From a virus (lineage: Duplodnaviria; Heunggongvirae; Uroviricota; Caudoviricetes), in the IMG/VR virus record IMGVR_UViG_3300029162_000078, positions 1 through 13,007 of that record: a stretch of DNA of 13,007 nucleotides; one strand, written 5' to 3'. Position numbers and translations under genes: made by a program. Positions within the stretch are counted from its first letter, which is position 1. Every line of letters begins with the position of its first letter. A model generated the notes under the pieces. The model had not been told where the DNA came from. It searched no databases and saw only the letters and a list, made by a program, of their open reading frames with translations. Shown piece after piece: positions 1,369-13,007 of the stretch.

Positions 1369-1444
1369 GCCGATATAGCTCAGTTGGTAGAGCAGCGCAT
1401 TCGTAATGCGAAGGTCGTAGGTTCGACTCCTATTATCGGCACCA
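1369..1444 (+). tRNA. thrW: tRNA-Thr (anticodon CGU)
   Basis: 76-nt sequence GCCGATATAGCTCAGTTGGTAGAGCAGCGCATTCGTAATGCGAAGGTCGTAGGTTCGACTCCTATTATCGGCACCA folds as a cloverleaf by hand: 7-bp acceptor stem, D-arm GCTC/GAGC, anticodon loop TTCGTAA (anticodon CGT), T-arm GTAGG/CCTAT, encoded CCA end. Confidence 0.93.
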
Positions 1445-1445
1445 T
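1399..1445 (+). repeat. attL: 47-bp direct repeat (3' end of thrW), left prophage junction
   Basis: Positions 1399-1445 are identical to 11853-11899, with mismatches immediately outside both ends (1398 c vs 11852 a; 1446 t vs 11900 c). The repeat covers the 3' part of the tRNA, typical of tRNA-targeting tyrosine integrases. Confidence 0.8.
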
Positions 1446-1458
1446 TAAAATCAATAAG

Positions 1459-2622
1459 TTACACATCATTAGTACCTTCCTTATTTTTTGACTGGGACAA
1501 ATTTGGGACCGATGGGTTCAGGATCGAGTCTATTTGCCGTGCGTGTTCGGTAAGGTGATTAGGTGCAAGGTGAGCATATCGACGAACCATTTCGATAGAC
1601 TCCCAGCCTCCCATTTCCTGTAACACTGACAACGGGACTCCGGCTTGAACCAGCCAACTTGCCCAGGTGTGTCTCAAGTCGTGAAATCTGAAATCATCAA
1701 TACCAGCCCGTCTCAGCGCCGCTTTCCAGGCTGTGTTTGCGTCATACCGCATCTTCCTTACTGTTGGCGCTTTCGTTCCGTCTGGTTTGGTACAGCTTTC
1801 CTTGTACACAAATACCCAACGGTGATGATTCCCGATTTGTTTTTTCAATACGCGACATGCAGTATCATTCAGCGCAACGCCAATTGCGCGGTTTGATTTA
1901 CTCTCTTCCGGGTTTATCCATGCCACCCGGCGCTGCATATCTATTTGTTGCCATTCAAGGTTGATGATGTTCGAGCGTCTTAAGCCTGTTGCCAGTGCAA
2001 ATTCAACAACAGACTTTAATGGCTCCGGACATTCATCAATCAGCCTTTGTGCTTCATGGGGCTCCAGCCAGCGGATCCGTTTATTCTTTGGTTGAGGCAC
2101 TTTAATAATTGGTGCCTTATCCAGCATTTTCCATTCACGCTCTGCGGCTCTTAGTAGGGCCTTTATAAATGAAAGATGCGTAGCCTTCGTTGCAACGGAC
2201 GCTGGTTTTGGCGTGTATTCTGGAACAGGTTTCCCTTTTTTTCTGCATGCTTCTGCCCTGAGTTTCCAGTTTTCCTCATGACGCCGGTTCGTCATTTTCT
2301 GCATTGCTGAATAAATTTTTGATTCAGTAATGTCTCTTAGTTGCATTCCTGCGAAATGTTGAAGCCAGAATCCGATCCGGCTTTTGTCATCGTCCAGCGA
2401 TTTTTTATGTGCTTTCTCTTCAAGCCACCTGACACACGCTTCCTCGAACGTTATATCAGGTATTTCACCAAGTTTGCTGACCCGCCATGCTTCAGCCTTT
2501 AGCTTGTCATGGAGTTCTGTCGCCTGCCTTTTGTCCTTTGTTCCAAGAGACTGTTTAAATCTTTTACCGTTCGGCAATGTGAAACTGGCGTACCATATTT
2601 CACCTCTGCGGAAGAGTGACAT
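1459..2622 (-). CDS. int: Tyrosine-type site-specific integrase, phage P22 Int-like
   Basis: 387-aa ORF. N-terminus [41 protein letters not shown] and C-terminal catalytic region (...[39 protein letters not shown]) match the P22-type integrase family as I recall it. Adjacent to the thrW att site. Confidence 0.9.
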
Positions 2623-2849
2623 TTTCTTTCCTCTGTTATGCCATCACCCGCGCTCACCTGGACAGTATGCAGCGGAGACTGAAGAGCCGCAATGCAGGCT
2701 TGTCGTGTTGTGAGGTAAGGAGATTTATTCTTAGTGGGATCTTTGCGTGTTGCCTGAAGACGCCCTGTGCGTATCCAGTTAATGGCAGTCGGTCTGGATA
2801 TCTTGAGAAAATGACAGGCCTCATCGAGTGTGAGGCTGTATGGCTCCAT
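2499..2849 (-). CDS. xis: Excisionase, P22 Xis-like (116 aa)
   Basis: Within ORF 2499..2933 the protein most plausibly starts at [31 protein letters not shown] (ATG at 2849..2847, overlapping the upstream gene's TAA as TAATG). 116 aa, and its 3' end overlaps the int start by 124 nt. The sequence resembles P22 Xis as I recall it. Confidence 0.75.
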
Positions 2850-3154
2850 TATTTCACCTCTTGTTGTGACATTGTTGAAAAATGGATACCTGCTCGTTGC
2901 TGCCAGACGATCCAACCGAGAGTCATATCCCATGCCATGTATTCGTTATCGCCGTTTTTTGCTCTCCGACGATCTACTAAGTCACCGAAACGCTTTTCCA
3001 TGAATAATTCATAAGCTTCGCGTTCATCTGGTTCTACTTCCAGAGATAGGAGTGCGATTTCATAAGCACGGCGCTCAATATCGTCTCGCACGTCAAGGCT
3101 GCTGATACGCTCTTTAATTTCTTTAATCAGTTCTTTGTCGGTAAAAGTGGTCAT
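2849..3154 (-). CDS. Hypothetical small phage early-region protein (101 aa)
   Basis: ORF MTTFTDKELIKEIKERISSLDVRDDIERRAYEIALLSLEVEPDEREAY... with GGAGG about 10 nt upstream of the ATG at 3154. Start overlaps the upstream gene's stop and its stop overlaps the xis start (TAATG), consistent with an operon. No recognisable domain. Confidence 0.5.
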   Translation of the reverse strand: MTTFTDKELIKEIKERISSLDVRDDIERRAYEIALLSLEVEPDEREAYELFMEKRFGDLVDRRRAKNGDNEYMAWDMTLGWIVWQQRAGIHFSTMSQQEVK

Positions 3155-3516
3155 TATGCTCCAGCCTCCGGTGCTTTTGGCATTACTGCCCAGTGAGTGA
3201 TATTGACGTTTTCAAGGTCCCCGACCTGAAATGTCCACTGCCATTCTCCGGTTTCTTTTTGTCCCCAGGTGTACCAGAGAGAACGCCAGCCAATTAGCCA
3301 GCCTTCTCCGTTAGCATCGAATAACAAAACACTTTCATTTGCTGGTGGCAGTTCAGTTGACACTGGTATTACTTTGTTTTCCTGTGCTGCACATTTAGCT
3401 TCAAGCGCATCGAATTTACGCACCAGGTATTCAGCATCTGTTTCATTCACTTTCAGATCTCGCGGTACACATCTCCCACGAAGAAACCCTTCCATTTCGA
3501 AAACATTCATGCGCAT
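3154..3516 (-). CDS. DUF551-like phage protein (120 aa)
   Basis: ORF with GGAG 8 nt upstream of the ATG at 3516. C-terminal region ...KVIPVSTELPP...GWLIGWRSLWYTWGQ...NITHWAVMPKAPE resembles the Trp-rich DUF551 signature common in lambdoid/P22-like early regions (motif recollection, not a search). Confidence 0.55.
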   Translation of the reverse strand: MRMNVFEMEGFLRGRCVPRDLKVNETDAEYLVRKFDALEAKCAAQENKVIPVSTELPPANESVLLFDANGEGWLIGWRSLWYTWGQKETGEWQWTFQVGDLENVNITHWAVMPKAPEAGA

Positions 3517-4073
3517 TTGCGTAACTCCGATAACTCGTTAAAACGTTCCATAAACATCCCGTAGGCATGGCCCGGTGCCTGTGGAATCACTTTGAACATC
3601 TCTGTTGCCGGGATACCTTCCAGTACAGGCCAGAAAGAGCCATCATCAAGCCCGAGATCGCGGCGTTCGGTTGCCAGCATAATGAGATCGGCATATTTCA
3701 CTGGCGTGCTCATAACAGGAGGTAACCCGTATTTCTCACGTATTACGGCGTCTATTTTTTCTTCCATCCGTTTATAGTCAGGAAGAAGTCGTTTCAGTGG
3801 TGCGGGGATGTCCTGGCAATATGCTTCTGTTGCATCATGCATTAAAGCTTCAAAAGCAAATTCCTGTGGCACCAGCTGGCTGCAAAGCACCGCATGTTGG
3901 GCGACACTGTAGAAGTGTGAAAGATGTCCTGCAAAGCGACAGATATTTGAAAGGGAAATGCCAGCATAATGCTGGGGTATGTTTCTGATGCGATGAAAGT
4001 GGTGGATTCTGCCGTATCGGATGCCGCCAGGCTGTTGCAGGGGGATATCTCGGTACTTCTGCCGCCGCCATCG
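3507..4073 (-). CDS. HD-superfamily phosphohydrolase, YfbR/YfdR-like 5'-deoxynucleotidase; no canonical start in frame (probable 5'-damaged or truncated gene)
   Basis: The track ORF 3507..3890 begins at a GTG, but the same frame is open upstream to a TGA at 4074-4076. That upstream stretch reads ...GIRYGRIHHFHRIRNIPQHYAGISLSNICRFAGHLSHFYSVAQHAVLCSQLVPQEFAFEALMHDATEAYCQDIPAPLK..., giving the H...HD metal-binding pattern of YfbR-type nucleotidases. There is no ATG/GTG/TTG between the stop and the first His motif. Confidence 0.55.
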   Translation of the reverse strand, partial: RWRRQKYRDIPLQQPGGIRYGRIHHFHRIRNIPQHYAGISLSNICRFAGHLSHFYSVAQHAVLCSQLVPQEFAFEALMHDATEAYCQDIPAPLKRLLPDYKRMEEKIDAVIREKYGLPPVMSTPVKYADLIMLATERRDLGLDDGSFWPVLEGIPATEMFKVIPQAPGHAYGMFMERFNELSELRKCA

Positions 4074-4778
4074 TCAGGCAAAAATTTCGTTGAGCAGGTG
4101 CAGAAAATGTGGCGTACCGGGAAACGCCTTTATGGTAACGCCAGCGACCTGGTCACCATGATCAAAACGCTTTCCGGTGTCAGCCTCGGCAGTGATCTGC
4201 AACCGCGCGGCGTCTGGAAAACGGACAGTAAAACCACCGCTACGGCGACGCAGCAGCGTAACGTGGTTGCCAGCACCCTTCGTACGACCGCAATCAGCGA
4301 AGCGGCGTATGCCGTCACCCGATTGCCTGCGCCAACAACTTCCGCGGTGATGCAGAATGCCGCAGTGGGGCAGGCAACAACAGCTGCACAGAGCACCGGC
4401 TGGCCTTCCGTCACGCATCCGGCACTGAACAATGCACCGGCGGTGAAAAACACGGTTGACCTGCCGACGTGGGAAGAACTGACTGACATTCGCGACACAC
4501 TGAATACGGCAATTGATAAGGAGTTGTCCCGTACAACCAGTGATGCGCTGTTTCTGGCGCTGCGCCGGGTGAAAGCAGATCTGAATGCGGATATCAACAC
4601 GCGCCTTGAACAGTCTGCACGGATCATTCAGCGCACACCGGATGAGGTTTTACCCGCGCTGGTGCTGGCGGCGACCTGGTTTGATAACGCGGCGCGTGAC
4701 GCGGACATTATTCGGCGTAATGCCATTACGCATCCCGGCTTTGTGCCGGTGATCCCTCTGAAGGTGCCAGTGCAATGA
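3969..4778 (+). CDS. Mu gp43 (N)-like DNA circulation protein, C-terminal fragment (N-terminal half missing)
   Basis: 269-aa ORF (frame open from 3951) whose stop overlaps the start of the next baseplate gene (ATGA at 4775-4778). Position and context match the gene upstream of gp44 in Mu-like tail modules. Far shorter than a full-length protein, and its 5' end runs into the antisense HD gene. Confidence 0.55.
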   Translation: MLGYVSDAMKVVDSAVSDAARLLQGDISVLLPPPSSGKNFVEQVQKMWRTGKRLYGNASDLVTMIKTLSGVSLGSDLQPRGVWKTDSKTTATATQQRNVVASTLRTTAISEAAYAVTRLPAPTTSAVMQNAAVGQATTAAQSTGWPSVTHPALNNAPAVKNTVDLPTWEELTDIRDTLNTAIDKELSRTTSDALFLALRRVKADLNADINTRLEQSARIIQRTPDEVLPALVLAATWFDNAARDADIIRRNAITHPGFVPVIPLKVPVQ

Positions 4779-5866
4779 ACGACAATGTCACGCTACGGGT
4801 AAATGGCCGGGAGTGGAATGGCTGGACATCGGTGCGCATCGGTGCCGGTATTGAACGGCTGGCGCGGGATTTCAGTGTGGAGATCACCCGCCAGTGGCCG
4901 GGTGATGAGGGTATCACCACGCTTCAGCCGCGCATTAAAAACGGTTCAAAAGTGGAGGTGCTGATTGGTGATGAGCTGGTGATCACCGGCTGGGTGGAGG
5001 CGACGCCCGTTCGTTACGATGCCCGTTCGGTCAGCACCGGTATTGCCGGACGCAGTCTGACCGCTGACCTGATTGACTGTGCAGCCGAACCGACACAGTT
5101 TAACGGACGCTCGCTGGTGCAGATAGCGCAGGCGCTTGCTGCGCCTTTCGGCATTGAGGTGGTGAACAACGGTGCGCCGTCGGGTGTTATTCCTGACGTC
5201 CAGCCCGATCACGGCGAAACGGTGATTGAGGTGATCAACAAAATACTCGGTCAGCAGCAGGCACTGGCTTACGACGACCCGCACGGCAGGCTGGTGATTG
5301 GCGGTATTGGCTCAACGCGGGCACATACCGCGCTGGTACTTGGGGAAAACATCCTTTCCTGTGATACGGAGAAGAGTATCCGGGAGCGGTTTTCAGTTTA
5401 CCAGGTGGCGGGGCAGCGTGCCGGAAACGATGATGATTTCGGTGAGGCCACCACCACCGCGCTGCGGGCCCGCACAGAGGATGCATTTATTGCCCGTTAC
5501 CGTCCGATGTATATCAGGCAGACAGGGCAGGCTACGGGGGCAGGCTGTATTGCCCGTGCGGACTTTGAAGCCCGACAACGGGCGGCGCGGACGGATGAAA
5601 CCACCTATGTGGTGCAGGGCTGGCGACAGGGTAACGGTACGCTGTGGCAGCCCAACCAGCGGGTGATTGTCTTTGATCCGGTCTGTGGTTTCGACAATAC
5701 CGAACTGCTTGTTTCGGAAGTCACGTTTACTCAGGACCAGAACGGCACCCTGACGGAAATCCGTGTCGGCCCACCTGATGCTTATCTGCCTGAACCCGAA
5801 GCCCCGGCGCGCGGAAAAAGAAAAAAGCCAGAGTACAGGAGGACCCGTTCTGATGAGGACGATTGA
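4775..5866 (+). CDS. Baseplate hub protein, Mu gp44 (P)-like / phage late control D family
   Basis: 363-aa ORF, translationally coupled to neighbours. Gene order gp43-gp44-gp45-gp46-gp47-gp48 matches the Mu N-P-Q-V-W-R baseplate cluster. GC-rich with Lys/Arg-rich C-terminus. Confidence 0.75.
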   Translation: MNDNVTLRVNGREWNGWTSVRIGAGIERLARDFSVEITRQWPGDEGITTLQPRIKNGSKVEVLIGDELVITGWVEATPVRYDARSVSTGIAGRSLTADLIDCAAEPTQFNGRSLVQIAQALAAPFGIEVVNNGAPSGVIPDVQPDHGETVIEVINKILGQQQALAYDDPHGRLVIGGIGSTRAHTALVLGENILSCDTEKSIRERFSVYQVAGQRAGNDDDFGEATTTALRARTEDAFIARYRPMYIRQTGQATGAGCIARADFEARQRAARTDETTYVVQGWRQGNGTLWQPNQRVIVFDPVCGFDNTELLVSEVTFTQDQNGTLTEIRVGPPDAYLPEPEAPARGKRKKPEYRRTRSDEDD

Positions 5867-6401
5867 AGCCATGCAGCGACAACTCCTCGGCCTGATTGGG
5901 CGGGCAGTGGTGAAAAGCATCAGTGCCGCCACGAAATGTCAGACCGTGGATGTGTCTCTGATTGCCGGTGAACCCAAAGCCGGGGTTGAACATCTTGAAC
6001 CCTACGGTTTTACCTCAAGGGCAAACAGCGGTGCGGAAGCGGTGGTGTTGTTTCCGGATGGCGACCGTTCTCATGCGGTGGTTGTTACGGTGTCGGACCG
6101 GCGCTACCGCCTGAAAGGGCTGCAGACGGGTGAGGTGGCTGTCTATGACGATCAGGGGCAGTCCGTGACGCTGACCCGGGAGGGGATCGTGGTGGACGGT
6201 GCAGGTAAAACGATCACGTTTCGCAATTCACCTAAAGCACGTTTTGAAATGGACCTGGAAGTGACAGGACAGGTGAAAGACCTGTGCGACTCCGGCGGCA
6301 CCACCATGTCAGCGATGCGGCTTGCCTATAACGGGCATCGTCACAGAGAGAACGGTCAGGGCAGTAACACCGACAAACCTGATAAAGCGATGGAGGCATG
6401 A
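5853..6401 (+). CDS. Baseplate assembly protein V / spike, Mu gp45-like
   Basis: ATG at 5853 preceded by AGGAGG (5837-5842). Protein MRTIEAMQRQLLGLIGRAVVKSISAATKCQTVDVSLIAGEPKAGVEHLEPYGFTS... is typical of gpV-type baseplate spike proteins. The track ORF begins at 5763, but the RBS supports 5853. Confidence 0.75.
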   Translation: MRTIEAMQRQLLGLIGRAVVKSISAATKCQTVDVSLIAGEPKAGVEHLEPYGFTSRANSGAEAVVLFPDGDRSHAVVVTVSDRRYRLKGLQTGEVAVYDDQGQSVTLTREGIVVDGAGKTITFRNSPKARFEMDLEVTGQVKDLCDSGGTTMSAMRLAYNGHRHRENGQGSNTDKPDKAMEA

Positions 6402-6826
6402 TGGAACTGTGGCTGACGGTGAACGGTAAACGCACCTGCGCCAGCGCACCGCTGGATCCGCTGACCCGCGCCGTGGTGATTTCCCTGTTTACCTGGCGGC
6501 GGGCGGAGCCTGATGACAACGCCGACGTCCCGATGGGATGGTGGGGGGATACCTGGCCTGCGGTACAGAATGACCGTTACGGCTCCCGACTGTGGCTGCT
6601 TCAGCGCAGCAAACTGACCAATCAGCTGGTGCAGACGGTAAGGGGGTATATCCGCGAATGCCTGCAATGGATGATTGATGACGGCGTGGTGTCCCGTATT
6701 GATCTGGATATCCGCCGCACCGGGATTAATGAACTGGGTAACAGTATCACTCTCTGGCGTCGTGACGGACCGGTAATGATTTCTTTTGATGATCTGTGGA
6801 GTGCGATAACGCATGGCGGACAGTGA
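6398..6826 (+). CDS. Mu gp46-like baseplate protein (GP46 family)
   Basis: 142-aa ORF. Start ATG overlaps the gp45 stop (ATGA). Size and position match the Mu V / gp46 family. Confidence 0.7.
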   Translation: MMELWLTVNGKRTCASAPLDPLTRAVVISLFTWRRAEPDDNADVPMGWWGDTWPAVQNDRYGSRLWLLQRSKLTNQLVQTVRGYIRECLQWMIDDGVVSRIDLDIRRTGINELGNSITLWRRDGPVMISFDDLWSAITHGGQ

Positions 6827-7871
6827 ATTTCAGCGCCCGACGCTGGCAGAAAATATCAGTATGCTCCGTAACGATTTATTCGCCAGGCTGGACGTCAGCG
6901 ACACGCTCCGGCGCATGGATGAAGACGTGCGGGCAAAGGTGTATGCGGCGGCGCTGCATACGGTTTACGGTTACATCGATTATCTGGCAATGAACATGCT
7001 GCCTGACCTGTGCGATGAGTCCTGGCTGGCGCGACATGCTGCGATGAAACGGTGTCCGCGCAAGGGGGCCACGACTGCCAGCGGGTATATGCGCTGGGAA
7101 GGCGTCAGCGATGGCCTGAAGGTGACCGCCGGGAGTGTTATTCAGCGCGATGACCTGGTTCAGTACACGGCAACTGCCGATGCAACCAGCGCCGGTGGTG
7201 TCCTGCGCGTGCCGATCGCCTGCTCAAGTGCAGGCGCGGTCGGTAACGCTGACGACGGTACGTCATTAATCCTGGTCACGCCGGTTAATGGTCTGCCGTC
7301 TTCCGGCGTGGCAGACACTCTGACAGGTGGATTTGATACTGAAGATCTGGAAACGTGGCGCGCCCGCGTCATTGAGCGGTATTACTGGACTCCTCAGGGC
7401 GGGGCTGACGGGGACTATGTTGTCTGGGCTAAAGAAGTGCCCGGCATTACCCGCGCATGGGCATACCGTCACTGGATGGGAACGGGGACTGTCGGTGTGA
7501 TGATTGCCGGCAGTGACCTGATTAATCCGATTCCGGAAGAATCAACGGAAACGGCGGCAAGACAACATATCGGGCCACTGGCCCCGGTGGCAGGCTCTGA
7601 TTTGTATGTGTTCAGGCCGGTGGCGCATACGGTGGATTTTCATATCCGTGTGACGCCGGATACACCGGAAATACGGGCTGCCATCACCGCGGAGTTGCGT
7701 TCGTTCCTGCTGCGTGATGGTTATCCGCAGGGAGAACTGAAGGTGTCGCGTATCAGTGAAGCGATTTCCGGTGCGAACGGGGAATACAGCCATCAGTTGC
7801 TTGCACCGGCGGAAAATATCTCCATTGCAAAAAATGAACTGGCGGTTCTGGGGACGATTTCATGGACGTGA
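6813..7871 (+). CDS. Baseplate J-like protein, Mu gp47 (W)-like
   Basis: 352-aa ORF overlapping the gp46 3' end. Size and position match baseplate J family proteins of Mu/e14-type modules. Confidence 0.8.
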
Positions 7872-7980
7872 CAAACGATGATTACATCCGCCTGTTGTCG
7901 GCACTGCTGCCGCCCGGTCCGGCGTGGTCAGCCAGCGATCCGGCGATTGCCGGTGCGGCACCGTCATTAACCCGCGTTCA
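7862..7980 (+). pseudogene. Truncated Mu gp48-like tail protein (DUF2313 family), N-terminal stub of about 30-40 codons
   Basis: Start ATG overlaps the gp47 stop. N-terminus [22 protein letters not shown] matches the conserved start of gp48/YmfQ-type proteins. The frame then runs antisense into the 3' end of tfa (stop at 7981-7983 on the minus strand), so the rest of the gene is deleted. Confidence 0.5.
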
Positions 7981-8418
7981 TCAGCGTGCGGATGCCGGAG
8001 GCGTAGGCCATTCAATATCTGGCGTACCGGAAGTATCGACCAGTTCCAGTGCGTCCAGATAATCCAGCCACAAATTATATTGCGCCAGTTCCTCACCTTT
8101 CAGGCGACCAATCGCCGCTTTACCAAGCCATTGCTTTCTGTTTATGTATTCGTTGATCTGATTAATCAATTGCTGCTTTTCCAATTCGGCTGCGGCAATT
8201 TGTTCCTCATGAGTTGGCGGTGGAATATCAATCCATGCAGGCATTCCGTCGATGACACCTCTGTATTTTCCTTCTGGTGCTTCCTTCATAAATTCGGCAG
8301 CAACAGTGTCGTCAATTTCGATTCCATCACCGGGCCATTCGCCGGATTCCTGATAAGCGATTTTAAGCTCCACAGGGAAAAACGCATTTTTATCGGCACT
8401 GAAAATATATTTCTGCAT
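7981..8418 (-). CDS. tfa: Tail fibre assembly protein (Tfa; U'-type copy of an invertible segment)
   Basis: 145-aa ORF with AGGA-type RBS. C-terminus ...[18 protein letters not shown] matches the conserved ...VDTSxxPDIEWP... end of E. coli Tfa proteins. Lies directly downstream of the tail-fibre variable fragment on the same strand. Confidence 0.75.
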
Positions 8419-8420
8419 TT

Positions 8421-8819
8421 CTACCGTCCTATCGAAACATAACTGAATCTGTATTGCTGTGAGATGTCACTGGTTGCCACACGCCACGCTGAATTACTGA
8501 TATGTTCAAAATTTACAGACAAAACCTGCGGGGCAGGACTCGACGGGTCTGACTGAACGGCATCAGACATAACACTGACTGAAACCATCGGCTGATTAGG
8601 GAATGGTATAGGGAAGTGTCCACTGATAAAGCGGGTCGTGTTTCCTGAAAAAGTGCCAAACTGAACAATATATCCACCTGGTAGCCTGAACCATCCCGAA
8701 CCAGAAGCGAATGCTCCCATATCCGGTATCTGATTATCTCCTGTGCCCACATCCCTTTTCGCCGCTTCTCCCAAACCAACGTTTATGAAAATGCAGAAAT
8801 AACGAGCAAATGGCATCAT
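8421..8819 (-). pseudogene. Tail fibre C-terminal variable segment (S'v-type), no functional start; remnant of the invertible segment
   Basis: Open frame ending TAG at 8421-8423, immediately upstream of tfa. The reading frame passes through the crossover site at 8766-8791, where in intact Gin/Pin systems the constant N-terminal tail-fibre part would be joined. No constant-part gene exists in this window. Confidence 0.5.
8766..8791. other. Din-family invertase crossover site (pix/gix/hix-like), right boundary of the former invertible segment
   Basis: TTCTCCCAAACC-AA-CGTTTATGAAAA: 26 bp with imperfect dyad symmetry and the AAACC-NN-GGTTT-like core of hix/gix/cix sites (recalled consensus). Located 55 bp upstream of the pin start, where the invertase-proximal site lies in Mu G, P1 C and e14 P segments. 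Confidence 0.5.
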
Positions 8820-8845
8820 TCCTGCTTTTGTCAGGGAGATCTACC

Positions 8846-9400
8846 ATGCTTATTGGCTATGTACGTGTGTCAACAAATGACCAGAACACAGATCTACAAC
8901 GTAATGCGCTGAACTGTGCAGGATGCGAGCTGATTTTTGAAGACAAGATAAGCGGTACAAAGTCCGAAAGGCCGGGACTGAAAAAACTGCTCAGGACATT
9001 ATCGGCAGGTGACACTCTGGTTGTCTGGAAGCTGGATCGGCTGGGGCGCAGTATGCGGCATCTGGTCATTCTGGTTGAGGAGTTGCGCGAACGTGGCGTT
9101 AATTTTCGCAGCCTGACGGATGCTATTGATACCAGCACACCGATGGGGCGTTTTTTCTTTCATGTGATGGGTGCCCTGGCTGAAATGGAACGAGAACTGA
9201 TTGTTGAACGAACAAAAGCTGGACTGGAAGCTGCTCGCGCACAGGGACGAATTGGTGGACGTCGTCCCAAACTTACACCAGAACAATGGGTGCAGGCCGG
9301 ACGATTAATTGCATCAGGCGTTCCTCGCCAGAAGGTGGCGATCATCTATGATGTTGGTATATCGACACTGTATAAGAAGTTTCCGGTCGGAGATAAATGA
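8846..9400 (+). CDS. pin: Serine recombinase, DNA invertase of the Pin/Gin/Cin/Hin (Din) family
   Basis: ATG at 8846 with AGGGAG RBS gives a 184-aa protein: MLIGYVRVSTNDQNTDLQ... (catalytic Ser in the YVRVST motif), resolvase core, C-terminal HTH (...GVPRQKVAIIYDVGISTLYKKF). The track ORF starts 12 codons upstream at 8810. Confidence 0.9.
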   Translation: MLIGYVRVSTNDQNTDLQRNALNCAGCELIFEDKISGTKSERPGLKKLLRTLSAGDTLVVWKLDRLGRSMRHLVILVEELRERGVNFRSLTDAIDTSTPMGRFFFHVMGALAEMERELIVERTKAGLEAARAQGRIGGRRPKLTPEQWVQAGRLIASGVPRQKVAIIYDVGISTLYKKFPVGDK

Positions 9401-9440
9401 AACCGTAGCACGTCGTATGCAAGAAGATCGTGCTGCGGTT
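9399..9440 (+). repeat. Copy A of a roughly 40-bp imperfect palindromic repeat; probable bidirectional terminator between pin and the GIY-YIG gene
   Basis: GAAACCGTAGCACGTCGTATGCAAGAAGATCGTGCTGCGGTT: arms ACCGTAGCACG / CGTGCTGCGGT (10 of 11 complementary) around a 16-nt loop, followed by TTTATGCTTAT. Sits between two convergent genes. Confidence 0.5.
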
Positions 9441-9460
9441 TATGCTTATCACTTAAAGAC

Positions 9461-10330
<870 letters not shown>

Positions 10331-10420
10331 CTAACCCTTTGAATTTACATAGCGCAAAAAGATACCTTTCCTCATAATGTGAGCTAATTTTATGTTTCGT
10401 TTGATGATCGGGTCGGTCTC

Positions 10421-10460
10421 GAAACCCGTAGCCACGTCATATGCAAGAACGTGCTACGAC
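10421..10460 (+). repeat. Copy B of the roughly 40-bp imperfect palindromic repeat
   Basis: GAAACCCGTAGCCACGTCATATGCAAGAACGTGCTACGAC aligns with copy A over about 80% of positions (GAAACC-GTAGC-ACGTC-TATGCAAGAA-CGTGCT-CG). Same orientation as A, on the other side of the GIY-YIG gene. Confidence 0.5.
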
Positions 10461-10673
10461 TGGCTGGTGAACTTCCGATAGTGCGAGTATTGAATTATTT
10501 CCAACTGTTATCGATTTTGCGTATTTTTTGCATGAGAGGATTTTTACCTCCTCCCACCGATCCTCCATGGCTTTACGCCAGTGTCTCTGGTCTGCTATGT
10601 GCCAGGAGCAGCCATTGCTAAGTCCATCCTGTATTGTGCAGGTCAGCTCGTTTTTAAAGAGTCCGGCCATCAT
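10437..10673 (-). CDS. Hypothetical small protein (78 aa), doubtful
   Basis: ORF MMAGLFKNELTCTIQDGLSNGCSWHIADQRHWRKAMEDRWEEVK... with no convincing Shine-Dalgarno sequence or promoter. Its 3' end overlaps repeat B. Retained only as a possibility. Confidence 0.2.
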   Translation of the reverse strand: MMAGLFKNELTCTIQDGLSNGCSWHIADQRHWRKAMEDRWEEVKILSCKKYAKSITVGNNSILALSEVHQPVVARSCI

Positions 10674-10811
10674 CTTACTGGTACAGACACCATATACTTT
10701 GTGACGGTCAGGCTACATATGCACAACTCAACTTATTCATCTATTTTTTGCTTTAGCATGTCAGTGTTGCTTTCTCGTCGGCGGGTGAGCGGTGACCTGA
10801 CCTGTCGATAA

Positions 10812-10848
10812 AGGAACGTAGCACGTTTTATGCAACACCCGCATGCGG
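10812..10848 (+). repeat. Copy C (more divergent) of the roughly 40-bp repeat
   Basis: GGAACGTAGCACGTTTTATGCAACACCCGCATGCGG shares the GTAGCACGT-NN-TATGCAA core with A and B, same orientation. Lies upstream of the flxA promoter. Confidence 0.4.
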
Positions 10849-10963
10849 CAGAAAATTATTGCCGAACGTTTACCCCTGTCAACAAGCTTTACTTTCTGAG
10901 GCGCGCCAGCCCGCGAGGAAAACAATCTGAACATCAAACAATTAATGACACAAGAAATACGAT

Positions 10964-10990
10964 TAAAGATTTTTTTGTGCATGTCGATAG
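10964..10990 (+). promoter_or_regulatory. Sigma-28 (FliA)-type promoter upstream of flxA
   Basis: TAAAGATT-(11 nt)-GTCGATAG against consensus TAAAGTTT-N11-GCCGATAA, 24 nt upstream of the flxA ATG. AGGAG RBS at about 11003-11007. Confidence 0.6.
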
Positions 10991-11013
10991 TGCTTTTTTA
11001 AAAGGAGAAATCT

Positions 11014-11346
11014 ATGTCTGTCACAATTCAGGGAAATACCTCAACCGTTATTTCAAACAACTCCGCCCCGGAAGGAACATCAGAAATAGCCAAAATCACA
11101 AGACAAATTCAGGTGCTGACTGAAAAGCTTGGGAAAATCTCATCGGAAGAGGGGATGACGACACAGCAGAAAAAAGAAATGGCTGCATTGGTACAGAAGC
11201 AAATTGAAAGCCTCAGGGCTCAACTGGAGCAGTTGTTAAGGCAGCAGGCAGAGAAAAAGAATGAAGACGCGACAGTTCAGCCTGATAAAAAAGAAGAGAA
11301 AAAAGACGATACAAATACCGCTGGCACCATTGATATTTACGTCTAA
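11014..11346 (+). CDS. flxA: FlxA-like protein (sigma-28-regulated prophage gene family)
   Basis: 110-aa ORF MSVTIQGNTSTVISNNSAPEGTSEIAKITRQIQVLTEKLGK... with coiled-coil and Lys/Glu-rich C-terminus, a strong RBS, a class-3 flagellar-type promoter upstream and a terminator downstream. Confidence 0.8.
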   Translation: MSVTIQGNTSTVISNNSAPEGTSEIAKITRQIQVLTEKLGKISSEEGMTTQQKKEMAALVQKQIESLRAQLEQLLRQQAEKKNEDATVQPDKKEEKKDDTNTAGTIDIYV

Positions 11347-11360
11347 GTGACAGCCGTATT

Positions 11361-11383
11361 GTGGCCCTCATCGGGCCACTTTT
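11361..11383 (+). terminator. Rho-independent terminator of flxA
   Basis: GTGGCCC-tcatc-GGGCCAC (perfect 7-bp GC-rich stem, 5-nt loop) followed by TTTT, starting 15 nt after the flxA stop. Confidence 0.6.
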
Positions 11384-11852
11384 CGCCATCAGCCTTTTCT
11401 TTAAAGACATATTATCTTTGTATCATTTCTGATAGTTAACATTACAAGATATAAGTAATGGACGCACTCCCAATTAGTCTATTTAAATCGCCACGAGTTT
11501 AACTGACAACCCATGATCAATTATGAATTGCAACTATTTCTGTAGTCACTTTTGTGGGGACAGTCCACAAAACTGCCAACTTCCGCTTCTTGCTCATAAC
11601 AGACATAAACTTCAGTTATGGCATAAAGGTATGCATGCTGGGTGGGGAAAGTATGAAGGAAAAGAAGACTGCTGCGCCGTTTGTCGTCACGTTTATCTTC
11701 ATTGGCTATGCAAGTCGTAATACAAGGTGGGACAAAACTGAGACACATAAGGCCTCGCAATGGCTTGCAAGGCTTTACATGTTTTGATGTGGTGGGACGT
11801 GTGAGCGCAGTGTTGATGGGGTAATGCTTTGAATTAGAAGTGGATTCTTATA

Positions 11853-11899
11853 ATTCGTAATGCGAAGGTCGTAGGTTCGACTCCTATTATCGGCACCAT
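11853..11899 (+). repeat. attR: 47-bp direct repeat duplicating the 3' end of thrW; right prophage junction
   Basis: Identical to 1399-1445. A partial tRNA-Thr 3' fragment without the 5' half of the tRNA. The right boundary of the island lies here. Confidence 0.8.
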
Positions 11900-12362
11900 C
11901 TTTTCTCGTAAAATCATCAAGTTACTATTGCAGTATTTTGCTTTGTTCAACACTAATGTGCAATTTTGCGCGTTGTAGGTGTGGCAAAATTGTGGCAAAG
12001 CTAATTGGTCAGCATTTGCATCATTACGCTAAACAAACTACTTCCTTATAAACGTAATGTGTTGACCTTATCGATGCGTTGCATGAAAGACAGTTTAGTG
12101 ATGAAAAATCTTATAAATTAACAGCTTAAATACATTATCCGATAGAGCTAAGTGCCAGAAAGGGACACTCAGGTTACATAACAATGAGTGATACAGTTCA
12201 CGTAGTGAAGGTACTATGCCTAGGTGTTTGATTACACTTTGATCATTGATGATACGCTCATGAAGGTATTACTTTCCTGTAATGAGCAGGTAGGTAACGA
12301 TGTCGAACTAAATGAATTTATAGTAAACTTTGCAACAAGAGAACAAGGGAGTATGAGGGGTT

Positions 12363-13007
12363 ATGGCTACTGCAGAGCAGATCAAAGCTTTATTGAAAAG
12401 CCACGTTGATCGTGATGATCAGCGTTTCTTTTCTATTGCTTTGCAGGTGGCAGCTAAGGAAGCAAGGCAAGGTCATCATAAGCTTGCTAATGATATAAAA
12501 AACTTAGTTGATAAAAATCAGAAAACAACGAGTTCTGTAGGTTTAGTTGAAAAACGACTTACACCATTTGTTAAGCAGCCTGATGGTGATCTTAAGGGGT
12601 TACTTGAGCAAACGAACAAGCCAGTACATCTTCAAGATCTGGTGATTTCTGGAAGCGTTAGGGAAAGATTGAATCAGGTTCTGCTTGAACAAAAACAGAA
12701 AGATAAACTTTCTGAGTTTGGGCTTATTCCAAGAAGAAAAATTCTTTTCACTGGTCCTCCCGGTACTGGTAAGACAATGTCCGCATCAGTCATTGCTACA
12801 GAGTTAAAGCTACCACTTTATACAGTCGTCTTAGATAATCTAATCACTCGCTATATGGGTGAAACTGCAGCTAAGCTGCGTTTAATTTTTGACCACATAC
12901 GGCAAACAAGAGCTGTATATTTTTTTGACGAGTTCGATGCTATAGGAACTCAGCGTGGCGCTCAGAATGACGTTGGAGAAATTCGGGTAATGACTCCAAC
13001 TTATTGA
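12363..13007 (+). CDS. Classic-clade AAA+ ATPase with N-terminal helical domain; ORF ends about 30 codons after Walker B (truncated, frameshifted, or cut by the window)
   Basis: Walker A ILFTGPPGTGKT, then YMGETAAKLRLIF and Walker B AVYFFDEFDAIG with the following TQRG motif. The ORF stops (TGA 13005-13007) before the expected NQLL...DG sensor region. The +2 frame over the last about 20 nt reads ...NDSNLL, which resembles that expected continuation. Preceded by about 460 bp of AT-rich non-coding DNA. Confidence 0.7.
   Translation: MATAEQIKALLKSHVDRDDQRFFSIALQVAAKEARQGHHKLANDIKNLVDKNQKTTSSVGLVEKRLTPFVKQPDGDLKGLLEQTNKPVHLQDLVISGSVRERLNQVLLEQKQKDKLSEFGLIPRRKILFTGPPGTGKTMSASVIATELKLPLYTVVLDNLITRYMGETAAKLRLIFDHIRQTRAVYFFDEFDAIGTQRGAQNDVGEIRVMTPTY

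What the first reader, a model, noticed from the sequence alone, without database searches (positions are those of the whole stretch)
12363..13007. AAA+ ATPase after attR ends abruptly after Walker B; possible frameshift and first gene of a separate island
Seen in sequence: an N-terminal domain of about 110 aa is followed by a canonical classic-clade AAA module that stops 15 codons after DEFDAIG, where AAA proteins normally continue into the sensor region. The +2 frame over the final bases reads NDSNLL, similar to that expected continuation. The gene and its long upstream region are AT-rich and lie outside attR, so they belong to neither the prophage nor obviously the core genome. Inference: a frameshifted or truncated ATPase that may open a second, tandem island at the thrW hotspot, possibly an ATPase-led defence or conflict operon continuing beyond the window.
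Basis: partly seen in the sequence, partly recalled or inferred. Interest (0 to 1): 0.5.

Follow-up and report, generated by a model that had tools for sequence, protein, structure and literature searches.

The report
IS1-truncated ietA defence gene remnant
The "abruptly ending" ATPase is the first gene of a known two-gene phage-defence and addiction module (IetAS), cut off at codon 208 by the end of an IS1 insertion sequence, so it is an ordinary dead gene and not a frameshift or a new system.

Summary
The ORF at 12363-13007 is real. It is ietA, the AAA+ ATPase of the IetAS module. It matches the intact 328-aa E. coli protein WP_001460375.1 exactly through Arg208 and hits PADLOC IetA models at 1.9e-50.

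The last 22 bases of the window (12986-13007) are not ietA. They are the terminal inverted repeat of IS1, which supplies six foreign codons and the TGA stop. A contig 100% identical to the window shows a complete 768-bp IS1 at this point.

There is therefore no frameshift or homopolymer error. The "NDSNLL" resemblance is a coincidence inside the IS1 end.

In intact relatives ietA sits directly after thrW and is followed 9 bp later by ietS, an 829-aa S8 protease.

In this lineage the operon is broken. The sensor-1, arginine-finger and lid regions of IetA are missing. The only read-through contig has no ietA 3' part and no ietS.

About a third of the 34 complete E. coli genomes that carry the locus have it damaged by IS elements or deletions. 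None of them keeps a whole ietS beside a cut ietA, which fits IetS as toxin and IetA as antitoxin.

This is a known system in an ordinary state of decay. Interest is low.

The parts
1369..1444 (+). thrW, tRNA-Thr (CGT). It is the integration hotspot that anchors both the prophage remnant and the ietAS island.
   Evidence: ARAGORN; Rfam tRNA, 71.8 bits.
1399..1445 (+). attL core, the 47-nt direct repeat formed by the 3' part of thrW.
   Evidence: the repeat finder family D1, 100% identical to 11853-11899.
11853..11899 (+). attR core, a duplicated thrW 3' end that closes the 10.4-kb prophage remnant.
   Evidence: In FAM21845 and in contig L008 the DNA to its right follows the intact thrW directly.
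11900..12362 (+). AT-rich left edge of the ietAS island, the untranslated region upstream of ietA (GC 0.365). A GAGG ribosome-binding motif lies a few bases before the ATG.
   Evidence: 100% identical to FAM21845 downstream of thrW; composition. The promoter scan found no consensus sigma-70 site.
12363..12985 (+). ietA 5' fragment, codons 1-208 of 328. It holds the N-terminal region, Walker A (12753-12776), the pore-loop YMG (12852-12860) and Walker B (12915-12932). It lacks sensor 1 (N232), the arginine fingers (R243/R244) and the C-terminal lid.
   Evidence: Identical to WP_001460375.1 over aa 1-208. PADLOC IetA 1.9e-50. Pfam AAA positions 1-81/131. Motif positions.
12986..13007 (+). Outermost 22 nt of IS1, the insB-proximal terminal inverted repeat (GGTAATGACTCCAACTTATTGA). 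It contributes the third base of codon 208, codons 209-214 (VMTPTY) and the TGA stop at 13005-13007.
   Evidence: An exact 22-mer is found at the ends of annotated IS1A copies in L001 and L002. L003, identical to the window, continues into a full 768-bp IS1 with insB and insA on the minus strand. Partial IS1 continuations in L004, L005, L007 and L008 are identical.

Best explanation
The ORF is a pseudogene fragment of ietA, the AAA+ ATPase (antitoxin/regulator) of the two-gene IetAS module. IetAS combines an AAA ATPase with an S8 subtilisin-like protease. It is known both as a plasmid/island addiction system and as an abortive-infection anti-phage system.

Ancestral state (shown in relatives): a small AT-rich island sits directly 3' of thrW and begins with ietA-ietS, with ietS starting 9 bp after the ietA stop.

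This lineage (shown): the end of an IS1 element abuts ietA after nucleotide 623 (window 12985). The reading frame runs 6 codons into the IS1 inverted repeat and stops at a TGA inside it. The resulting 214-aa product keeps the N-terminal region and the Walker A and Walker B motifs. It has lost sensor 1, the arginine fingers and the lid, so it cannot be a working AAA ATPase.

Inferred: the junction most likely arose by an IS1-promoted adjacent deletion or rearrangement that also removed the rest of ietA and ietS, as demonstrably happened at other breakpoints in other E. coli strains. A cell that lost the antitoxin ATPase while keeping the protease toxin should not survive.

The 10.4-kb prophage remnant to the left integrated into thrW independently of this event.
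For: Shown:
- 208/208 residue identity to the intact 328-aa protein, then divergence.
- DNA identity of 100% to 30 complete E. coli genomes stops exactly at 12985.
- The last 22 nt equal the IS1 terminal repeat found at the ends of annotated IS1A copies.
- Contig L003 is 100% identical to window 2363-13007. It continues into a complete 768-bp IS1 with InsB and InsA Pfam domains.
- The same truncated protein is deposited as WP_266164507.1 and was seen on 19 contigs from NCBI, ENA, Logan and JGI, so it is not an assembly accident.
- PADLOC: the window protein hits IetA at 1.9e-50, the intact protein at 5.5e-77, and the downstream 829-aa protein hits IetS at 2.9e-34. Pfam Peptidase_S8 scores 4.3e-54.
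- The intact AAA module aligns with the Cdc48/p97 D2 domain through the sensor-1, arginine-finger and lid regions, which lie after residue 208.

Support for deletion:
- In FAM21845, 2013C-4991 and DAM one IS1 has the same right flank (TTCATCATAGATGCC...). Its left flank differs: 9.7 kb from thrW, just after ietS, and at ietA nt 419. This is a nested series of adjacent deletions, in the same IS1 orientation as the window.
- In all complete genomes where ietA is cut, ietS is absent beyond nt ~281.
- L003 has no ietA C-terminal part and no ietS in the 7.3 kb downstream, and no 9-bp target duplication.

Literature:
- IetS is described as toxin and IetA as antitoxin on pTiC58, and ietA-mutant constructs could not be obtained (PMC13069673).
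- The homologous SGI1 pair S026/S025 is a functional toxin-antitoxin system (PMC5006074).
- ietAS acts by abortive infection (bioRxiv 10.1101/2022.08.27.505566).
Against: - The window stops 22 nt into IS1, so what lies beyond IS1 in the source genome is not seen directly.
- The single read-through contig (L003) comes from what looks like a metagenome-scale assembly: it is NODE_118 and still 56 kb long.
- L003 joins IS1 to DNA that is 100% identical to Klebsiella and Aminobacter plasmids and absent from all 5,426 complete E. coli genomes. That join may be a mis-assembly through the repeat.
- L003's right flank does not match the flank predicted by the nested-deletion series.
- A simple insertion, with the ietA 3' part and ietS still present but silenced by IS1 polarity, is therefore not excluded.
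- Searches for that predicted right-hand junction, and for the left junction, in JGI metagenomes and GTDB representative genomes found nothing either way.
Confidence: 0.93

Rival explanations
1. A frameshift or sequencing error (homopolymer indel near 12984-12992) in an otherwise intact AAA ATPase gene, with the protein continuing in the +2 frame as NDSNLL.
For: The +2 frame does read GNDSNLL. This loosely resembles the RVLNSFL motif of the intact protein.
Against: - After 12985 the sequence shares only 7 of 22 bases with the intact gene.
- It is 22/22 identical to the IS1 end.
- The same junction recurs in independent assemblies, followed by IS1.
- No AAA C-terminal region is found in any frame downstream.
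Confidence: 0.01
2. A naturally short, stand-alone AAA-like protein whose homologues normally end here.
For: The 214-aa sequence is deposited as a protein (WP_266164507.1) and recurs on 19 contigs.
Against: - The intact 328-aa form is seen on at least 1000 contigs and in several genera.
- The PADLOC IetA models are 262-395 positions long, and the window protein matches only about their first 200-221 positions.
- The Pfam AAA match stops at model position 81 of 131.
- The C-terminal 6 residues and the stop are encoded by IS1.
Confidence: 0.01
3. A simple IS1 insertion. Beyond the 768-bp IS1 the genome still carries a 9-bp duplication, the ietA 3' part and an intact ietS, kept harmless by the transcriptional polarity of IS1. 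The operon would be interrupted but not deleted, and could revert by precise excision.
For: - Simple IS1 and IS903B insertions with 9-bp duplications do occur in this operon in strains 14EC017 and 730V1.
- L003's downstream join may be a chimeric assembly.
Against: - Those simple insertions are in ietS, not ietA.
- No complete genome keeps a whole ietS next to a cut ietA.
- L003 shows neither a duplication nor ietS.
- The predicted right junction was not found in JGI metagenomes, which is weak negative evidence.
- Loss of the antitoxin gene with the toxin retained is expected to be counter-selected (PMC13069673, PMC5006074).
Confidence: 0.22
4. The IetA(1-208) fragment is retained because it still has a function, for example its N-terminal domain binding a partner or a phage trigger.
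For: The identical truncated allele persists in strains with three different left-hand contexts at thrW, so it has been inherited for some time.
Against: - The allele is identical at DNA level everywhere it was found, so there is no evidence of purifying selection.
- The catalytic apparatus is incomplete.
- The partner protease is not detected.
- Persistence of recent IS-generated pseudogenes is normal in E. coli.
Confidence: 0.04

Closest known systems
IetAS. It comprises ietA (AAA ATPase) and ietS (S8 serine protease). It was first described as a toxin-antitoxin stability system of the Agrobacterium Ti plasmid pTiC58 (Yamamoto et al. 2009, cited in PMC13069673). It was later listed as an anti-phage system (Gao et al. 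2020, cited in the same paper) that acts by abortive infection (bioRxiv 10.1101/2022.08.27.505566).
   Same: The window protein and its intact allele hit four PADLOC IetA models, with a best score of 5.5e-77 for the intact form. The gene 9 bp downstream in intact strains hits the IetS models and Pfam Peptidase_S8. The gene order is ATPase first, protease second.
   Different: Here only codons 1-208 of ietA remain. No ietS was found beyond the IS1. The module is therefore a remnant and not a working system.
SgiAT (S026/S025) of Salmonella Genomic Island 1, an IetAS-type toxin-antitoxin pair that stabilises an integrated island (PMC5006074).
   Same: An ATPase-antitoxin and subtilase-toxin pair carried on a chromosomally integrated island near its edge. 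This fits an addiction role for ietAS at the thrW island.
   Different: Homology to SgiAT was not tested directly here because no sequence was available. The window copy is inactivated.
IS1 and IS1-promoted adjacent deletions. This is classical IS1 behaviour, cited from my own knowledge of the IS1 literature.
   Same: The terminal 22 nt are identical to IS1. L003 shows a 768-bp element with insA and insB. Related strains show a fixed IS1 with nested deletions extending leftward into the ietAS island.
   Different: For the window's own lineage the far side of IS1 is not reliably known, so deletion versus simple insertion is inferred and not shown.
Classic-clade AAA+ ATPases (Cdc48/p97 D2, Vps4/SpoVK type).
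   Same: The intact IetA aligns with Cdc48/p97 D2 over aa 105-314 at E about 1e-43. It has Walker A, a pore-loop-like YMG, Walker B, the sensor-1 Asn and paired Arg residues.
   Different: It has a single AAA module with a roughly 100-aa N-terminal region that matches no Pfam family. The window copy ends before sensor 1.

Membership tests
IetA (ATPase of IetAS) | Sequence match to curated IetA profiles. | tested here: met
   PADLOC PDLC04232 at 1.9e-50 and PDLC02196 at 1.6e-46 for the window protein; 5.5e-77 for the intact allele.
IetA (ATPase of IetAS) | A complete AAA+ module: Walker A, Walker B, sensor 1, arginine finger and lid. | tested here: not met
   The window copy ends at residue 208. 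The Pfam AAA match covers model positions 1-81 of 131. N232, R243/R244 and the lid are present only in the intact allele. The window copy is a fragment of a family member, not a functional member.
IetAS system | An adjacent, co-oriented S8 subtilisin-like protease gene (ietS). | tested here: not met
   It is met in intact relatives, where ietS starts 9 bp after ietA, with IetS at 2.9e-34 and Peptidase_S8 at 4.3e-54. It is absent from the window. It is also absent from the 7.3 kb beyond the window in L003, with the caveat that L003 may be chimeric.
IetAS system | Anti-phage (abortive infection) activity, and toxin-antitoxin behaviour. | not testable with these tools
   Known only from the literature for homologues (PMC13069673, PMC5006074, bioRxiv 10.1101/2022.08.27.505566, bioRxiv 10.1101/2022.08.21.504612). 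Indirect support: no complete genome has a cut ietA beside a whole ietS.
IS1 | The characteristic terminal inverted repeat. | tested here: met
   Window 12986-13007 is 22/22 identical to the ends of three annotated IS1 copies.
IS1 | A roughly 768-bp element encoding InsA and InsB. | tested here: met
   L003 10624-11391 is 768 bp and 99.5-99.6% identical to IS1A copies. Pfam domains DDE_Tnp_IS1, Zn_ribbon_InsA and HTH_Tnp_IS1 are present. Only the first 22 nt lie inside the window.
IS1 | A 9-bp target-site duplication flanking a simple insertion. | tested here: not met
   L003's flanks are ...GAAATTCG|IS1|CCCGACCC..., with no duplication. This fits deletion, rearrangement or a mis-join. Simple IS1 insertions in ietS of strain 14EC017 do show 9-bp duplications.

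The most novel reading that the evidence does not exclude
The thrW ietAS locus may be a natural experiment on the order in which a protease-toxin / ATPase-antitoxin defence module can be lost. Across E. coli it is hit again and again by IS elements, yet never with the ATPase destroyed and the protease left whole. The IS1-cut ietA allele in this window would then be one endpoint of a constrained decay pathway. Less likely, the retained IetA(1-208) fragment could itself act, for example as a decoy that binds the phage trigger or a partner.
Probability: 0.08. Interest if true: 0.3.

Novelty: already known. Interest (0 to 1): 0.1.

Why it matters
The main value is for annotation. The gene should be labelled an IS1-disrupted ietA pseudogene, not a frameshifted or novel ATPase. 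This strain should not be scored as IetAS-positive by defence-system finders that count single-gene hits.

A minor further point: together with the relatives, the locus shows that the thrW hotspot stacks a prophage remnant on an older defence/addiction island. It also shows that IS1 erodes that island in a pattern consistent with the reported roles of IetS as toxin and IetA as antitoxin.

Tried and rejected
- An exact search for the ietA|IS1 junction in GTDB representative genomes and in JGI metagenomes found nothing.
- A search for the right-hand junction predicted by a simple insertion (IS1 end, 7-10 nt, then TAGGGTCTTAAATTC...) in JGI metagenomes found nothing. The question of insertion versus deletion therefore stayed open.
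- None of 5,426 complete E. coli genomes contains the junction.
- I tried to place L003's post-IS1 DNA in E. coli. There was no match in near or distant mode. It matches Klebsiella and Aminobacter plasmids at 100%. The Klebsiella plasmid has no IS1 at that point. I therefore treat the L003 read-through as possibly chimeric and do not build on it.
- IS1 single-nucleotide variants (positions 373, 376, 507) did not help decide which IS1 copy is involved.
- The promoter scan upstream of ietA found no consensus sigma-70 site, and the terminator-like hits inside the ORF are AT-rich noise.
- Rfam found only the tRNA.
- The original pTiC58 paper (PMC2704731) is not held, so it is cited second-hand.
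- I did not run the large protein-database searches or a structure prediction, because the answer did not depend on them.

Full report

An ATG-initiated ORF runs from 12363 to 13007, giving 214 codons plus TGA. Walker A (GPPGTGKT) is at aa 131-138 and Walker B (VYFFDE, within DEFDAIG) at aa 185-195.

Pfam AAA (PF00004) matches aa 127-206 at E = 6.6e-19 but reaches only model position 81 of 131. The module really is cut short.

The only tRNA in the window is tRNA-Thr(CGT) at 1369-1444. Its last 47 nt (1399-1445) recur exactly at 11853-11899. This bounds a 10.4-kb integrated element, so the ORF lies outside attR.

GC is 0.365 upstream of the ORF and 0.40 inside it, against 0.54 in proA. The window begins at the proA ATG and ends exactly on the ORF's stop codon.

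**2. What ends the ORF**

Megablast of 11900-13007 against 5,426 complete E. coli genomes gave 30 near-full matches. All of them cover query positions 1-1086 (one from position 2) and none goes further, and most are at 100% identity. Identity therefore stops at window base 12985.

In the intact gene the next bases are TAGGGTCTTAAATTC.... The window instead reads GGTAATGACTCCAACTTATTGA, which shares only 7 of 22 bases with the intact gene.

That 22-mer occurs exactly at the outer ends of three annotated IS1 copies in the two loci fetched first. It is the insB-proximal terminal inverted repeat of IS1.

At protein level the window product equals the intact 328-aa WP_001460375.1 for residues 1-208. 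It then reads VMTPTY* in place of RVLNSF.... Codon 208 stays Arg (CGG for CGT) by chance.

An exact-protein look-up found the truncated protein in 39 blocks of public assemblies, of which 23 contigs were read. It is deposited as WP_266164507.1 / MDF7587438.1, "Escherichia coli", and seen on 19 contigs.

Contig L003 (ENA ERZ1744882, 56 kb) is 100% identical to window 2363-13007. It continues into a complete 768-bp IS1 at L003 10624-11391, with InsB and InsA domains on the minus strand. Four other contigs carry 108-138 nt of IS1 sequence at this junction (the window's 22 included), all identical to L003's copy; a fifth (L006) ends after 27 nt.

The truncation is a genuine, recurrent IS1 junction. 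It is not a frameshift, a homopolymer error or an assembly artefact. The similarity of NDSNLL to an AAA motif is a coincidence within the IS1 end.

**3. What the gene is**

In strain FAM21845 the same DNA follows thrW directly, with no prophage. It encodes the 328-aa AAA ATPase and, 9 bp later, an 829-aa S8 family peptidase.

PADLOC assigns the ATPase to IetA (5.5e-77; the window fragment scores 1.9e-50). It assigns the peptidase to IetS (2.9e-34). Pfam Peptidase_S8 scores 4.3e-54.

The intact AAA module aligns with Cdc48/p97 D2 over aa 105-314 at about 1e-43. This places sensor 1 at N232, the paired arginines at R243/R244 and the lid after about residue 250. All of these lie beyond the breakpoint, so the window product cannot be a competent AAA ATPase.

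From the literature:
- IetAS was first described as a toxin-antitoxin stability system of pTiC58, with the protease as toxin and the ATPase as antitoxin.
- It is also an anti-phage system whose mechanism is still unknown, and constructs with a mutated ietA could not be obtained (PMC13069673).
- The homologous S026/S025 pair of SGI1 is a functional toxin-antitoxin system that stabilises the island (PMC5006074).
- ietAS behaves as an abortive-infection system triggered by a phage protein (bioRxiv 10.1101/2022.08.27.505566).
- An E. coli ietAS, from strain ECOR52, has been tested against phages (bioRxiv 10.1101/2022.08.21.504612).

**4. The island and how it decays**

In FAM21845 the region after thrW reads, in order:
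- ietA and ietS
- higA
- traJ/trbJ/trbL remnants
- vbhA
- IS1, then a partial gene, ysgD and corA, then a second IS1
- an integrase
- CP4-6-like genes

Comparing strains, one IS1 has the same right flank (TTCATCATAGATGCC...) in FAM21845, 2013C-4991 and DAM. Its left flank differs in each:
- FAM21845: island position 9714.
- 2013C-4991: island position 4347, just after ietS.
- DAM: island position 1023, which is ietA nt 419.

This is a nested series of IS1-adjacent deletions, all with the IS1 end GGTAATGAC... facing ietA, as in the window. The window's breakpoint is island position 1227, which is ietA nt 623.

Other damage to the operon:
- IS1 in ietS with a 9-bp duplication (14EC017, 14EC047).
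- IS903B in ietS (730V1).
- IS3 plus ISSen4 in ietS (LR-33).
- A 1-nt deletion at ietS nt 178 (2013C-4991).
- A 3' truncation of ietS (ET881).
- ISKpn26 with loss of most of ietS (TUM2820).
- ietA cut at nt 970 (B27) or at nt 419 (DAM, ANT, VTB97584v), with ietS absent.

Of the 34 complete genomes carrying any part of the operon, about a third are damaged. None has a cut ietA beside a whole ietS. That asymmetry is what the toxin/antitoxin assignment predicts.

**5. What lies beyond the window in this lineage**

Only L003 reads through the IS1. After IS1 it has no 9-bp duplication. A tblastn search at E up to 10 found no ietA C-terminal part and no ietS.

Instead it carries 6.5 kb that is 100% identical to a Klebsiella quasipneumoniae IncF plasmid and an Aminobacter plasmid. 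This DNA is absent from all complete E. coli genomes, even in distant mode.

The Klebsiella plasmid has no IS1 at that junction. L003 is NODE_118 of an assembly yet still 56 kb long, which implies a multi-genome sample. The join may therefore be a mis-assembly through the repeat.

Junction searches in GTDB representatives and JGI metagenomes were empty.

I conclude with high confidence that IS1 terminates the gene. With moderate confidence (about 0.7) I conclude that the rest of ietA and ietS is deleted or displaced and not merely interrupted. That second conclusion rests on the parallel cases and on the toxin-antitoxin logic.

**6. Timing relative to the prophage**

The identical IS1-cut allele occurs in three left-hand contexts:
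- with the 10.4-kb remnant (window, L003-L005, L007);
- with an empty thrW (L008);
- with a different element using a shorter att (L006).

The ietA lesion and the prophage integration are therefore independent events at an active hotspot.

**7. Verdict**

The frameshift mechanism and the expected continuation are wrong.

The feature is a known system (IetAS) inactivated by a known mechanism (IS1). Novelty: already known. Interest: low.

Noticed in passing
window 1446-11852: The element in thrW is a heavily deleted prophage remnant. It carries a tyrosine integrase (1459-2622, minus strand) and Mu-type baseplate genes (4775-7871). It has only one orientation of a tail-fibre tip cassette (Gp53-like_C at 8421-8819 and Caudo_TAP at 7981-8418, both minus strand). 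Further genes are a Pin/Gin-type serine invertase (8810-9400), a LEM-3-like GIY-YIG protein (9461-10285, minus strand) and FlxA (11014-11346). There are no head, tail-tube, lysis or replication genes. No inverted repeat of 14 nt or more flanks the fibre cassette.
   Followed up: partly
L010, L011, L012, L001; complete-genome survey: The ietAS operon at thrW is present in only 34 of 5,426 complete E. coli genomes. It is damaged in about a third of them by at least five different IS families or small lesions. A cut ietA never co-occurs with a whole ietS.
   Followed up: partly
L013 9715-12934 (FAM21845); also L001 13206-16447 and L012 4883-8124: An IS1-flanked segment carrying a partial gene, ysgD and a corA copy sits inside the thrW island, with the two IS1 copies in inverted orientation. 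It looks like a composite transposon that has captured the corA region. Whether the native corA locus is also present was not checked.
   Followed up: no
L003 11392-17927: The 6.5 kb after IS1 is 100% identical between a Klebsiella quasipneumoniae IncF plasmid (pKqs_SB610_3) and an Aminobacter sp. SR38 plasmid. It encodes a BMP-family ABC transporter, a DUF2877/AllH protein and amidohydrolases, with a ring-opening amidohydrolase nearby. This is a catabolic module moving between very distant hosts. It is either inserted next to ietA in one E. coli or mis-joined by the assembler.
   Followed up: partly
L011 1-1070; L001 2603-8286 and 16447-19086: Other defence-type genes flank ietAS in some strains. 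Strain 730V1 has an AVAST type 2 gene (avs2) immediately upstream. Strain 2013C-4991 has a DEAD/DEAH helicase, a SMEK-domain protein and a NACHT-domain protein nearby. thrW therefore behaves as a defence-island hotspot.
   Followed up: no
L006 1-1468: One Logan contig carries the same IS1-cut ietA but has a different element to the left. That element encodes a PRiA4_ORF3-domain protein and joins through a shorter, 1-nt-variant copy of the thrW 3' end.
   Followed up: no
cluster listing: The 90%-identity protein cluster containing IetA also contains the 829-aa IetS proteins, and its representative is an IetS sequence. This suggests that fused or mis-called ietA-ietS products link the two in the clustering. 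Near-identical IetA is also recorded in Salmonella, Edwardsiella, Pectobacterium and Klebsiella, which implies recent horizontal spread.
   Followed up: no
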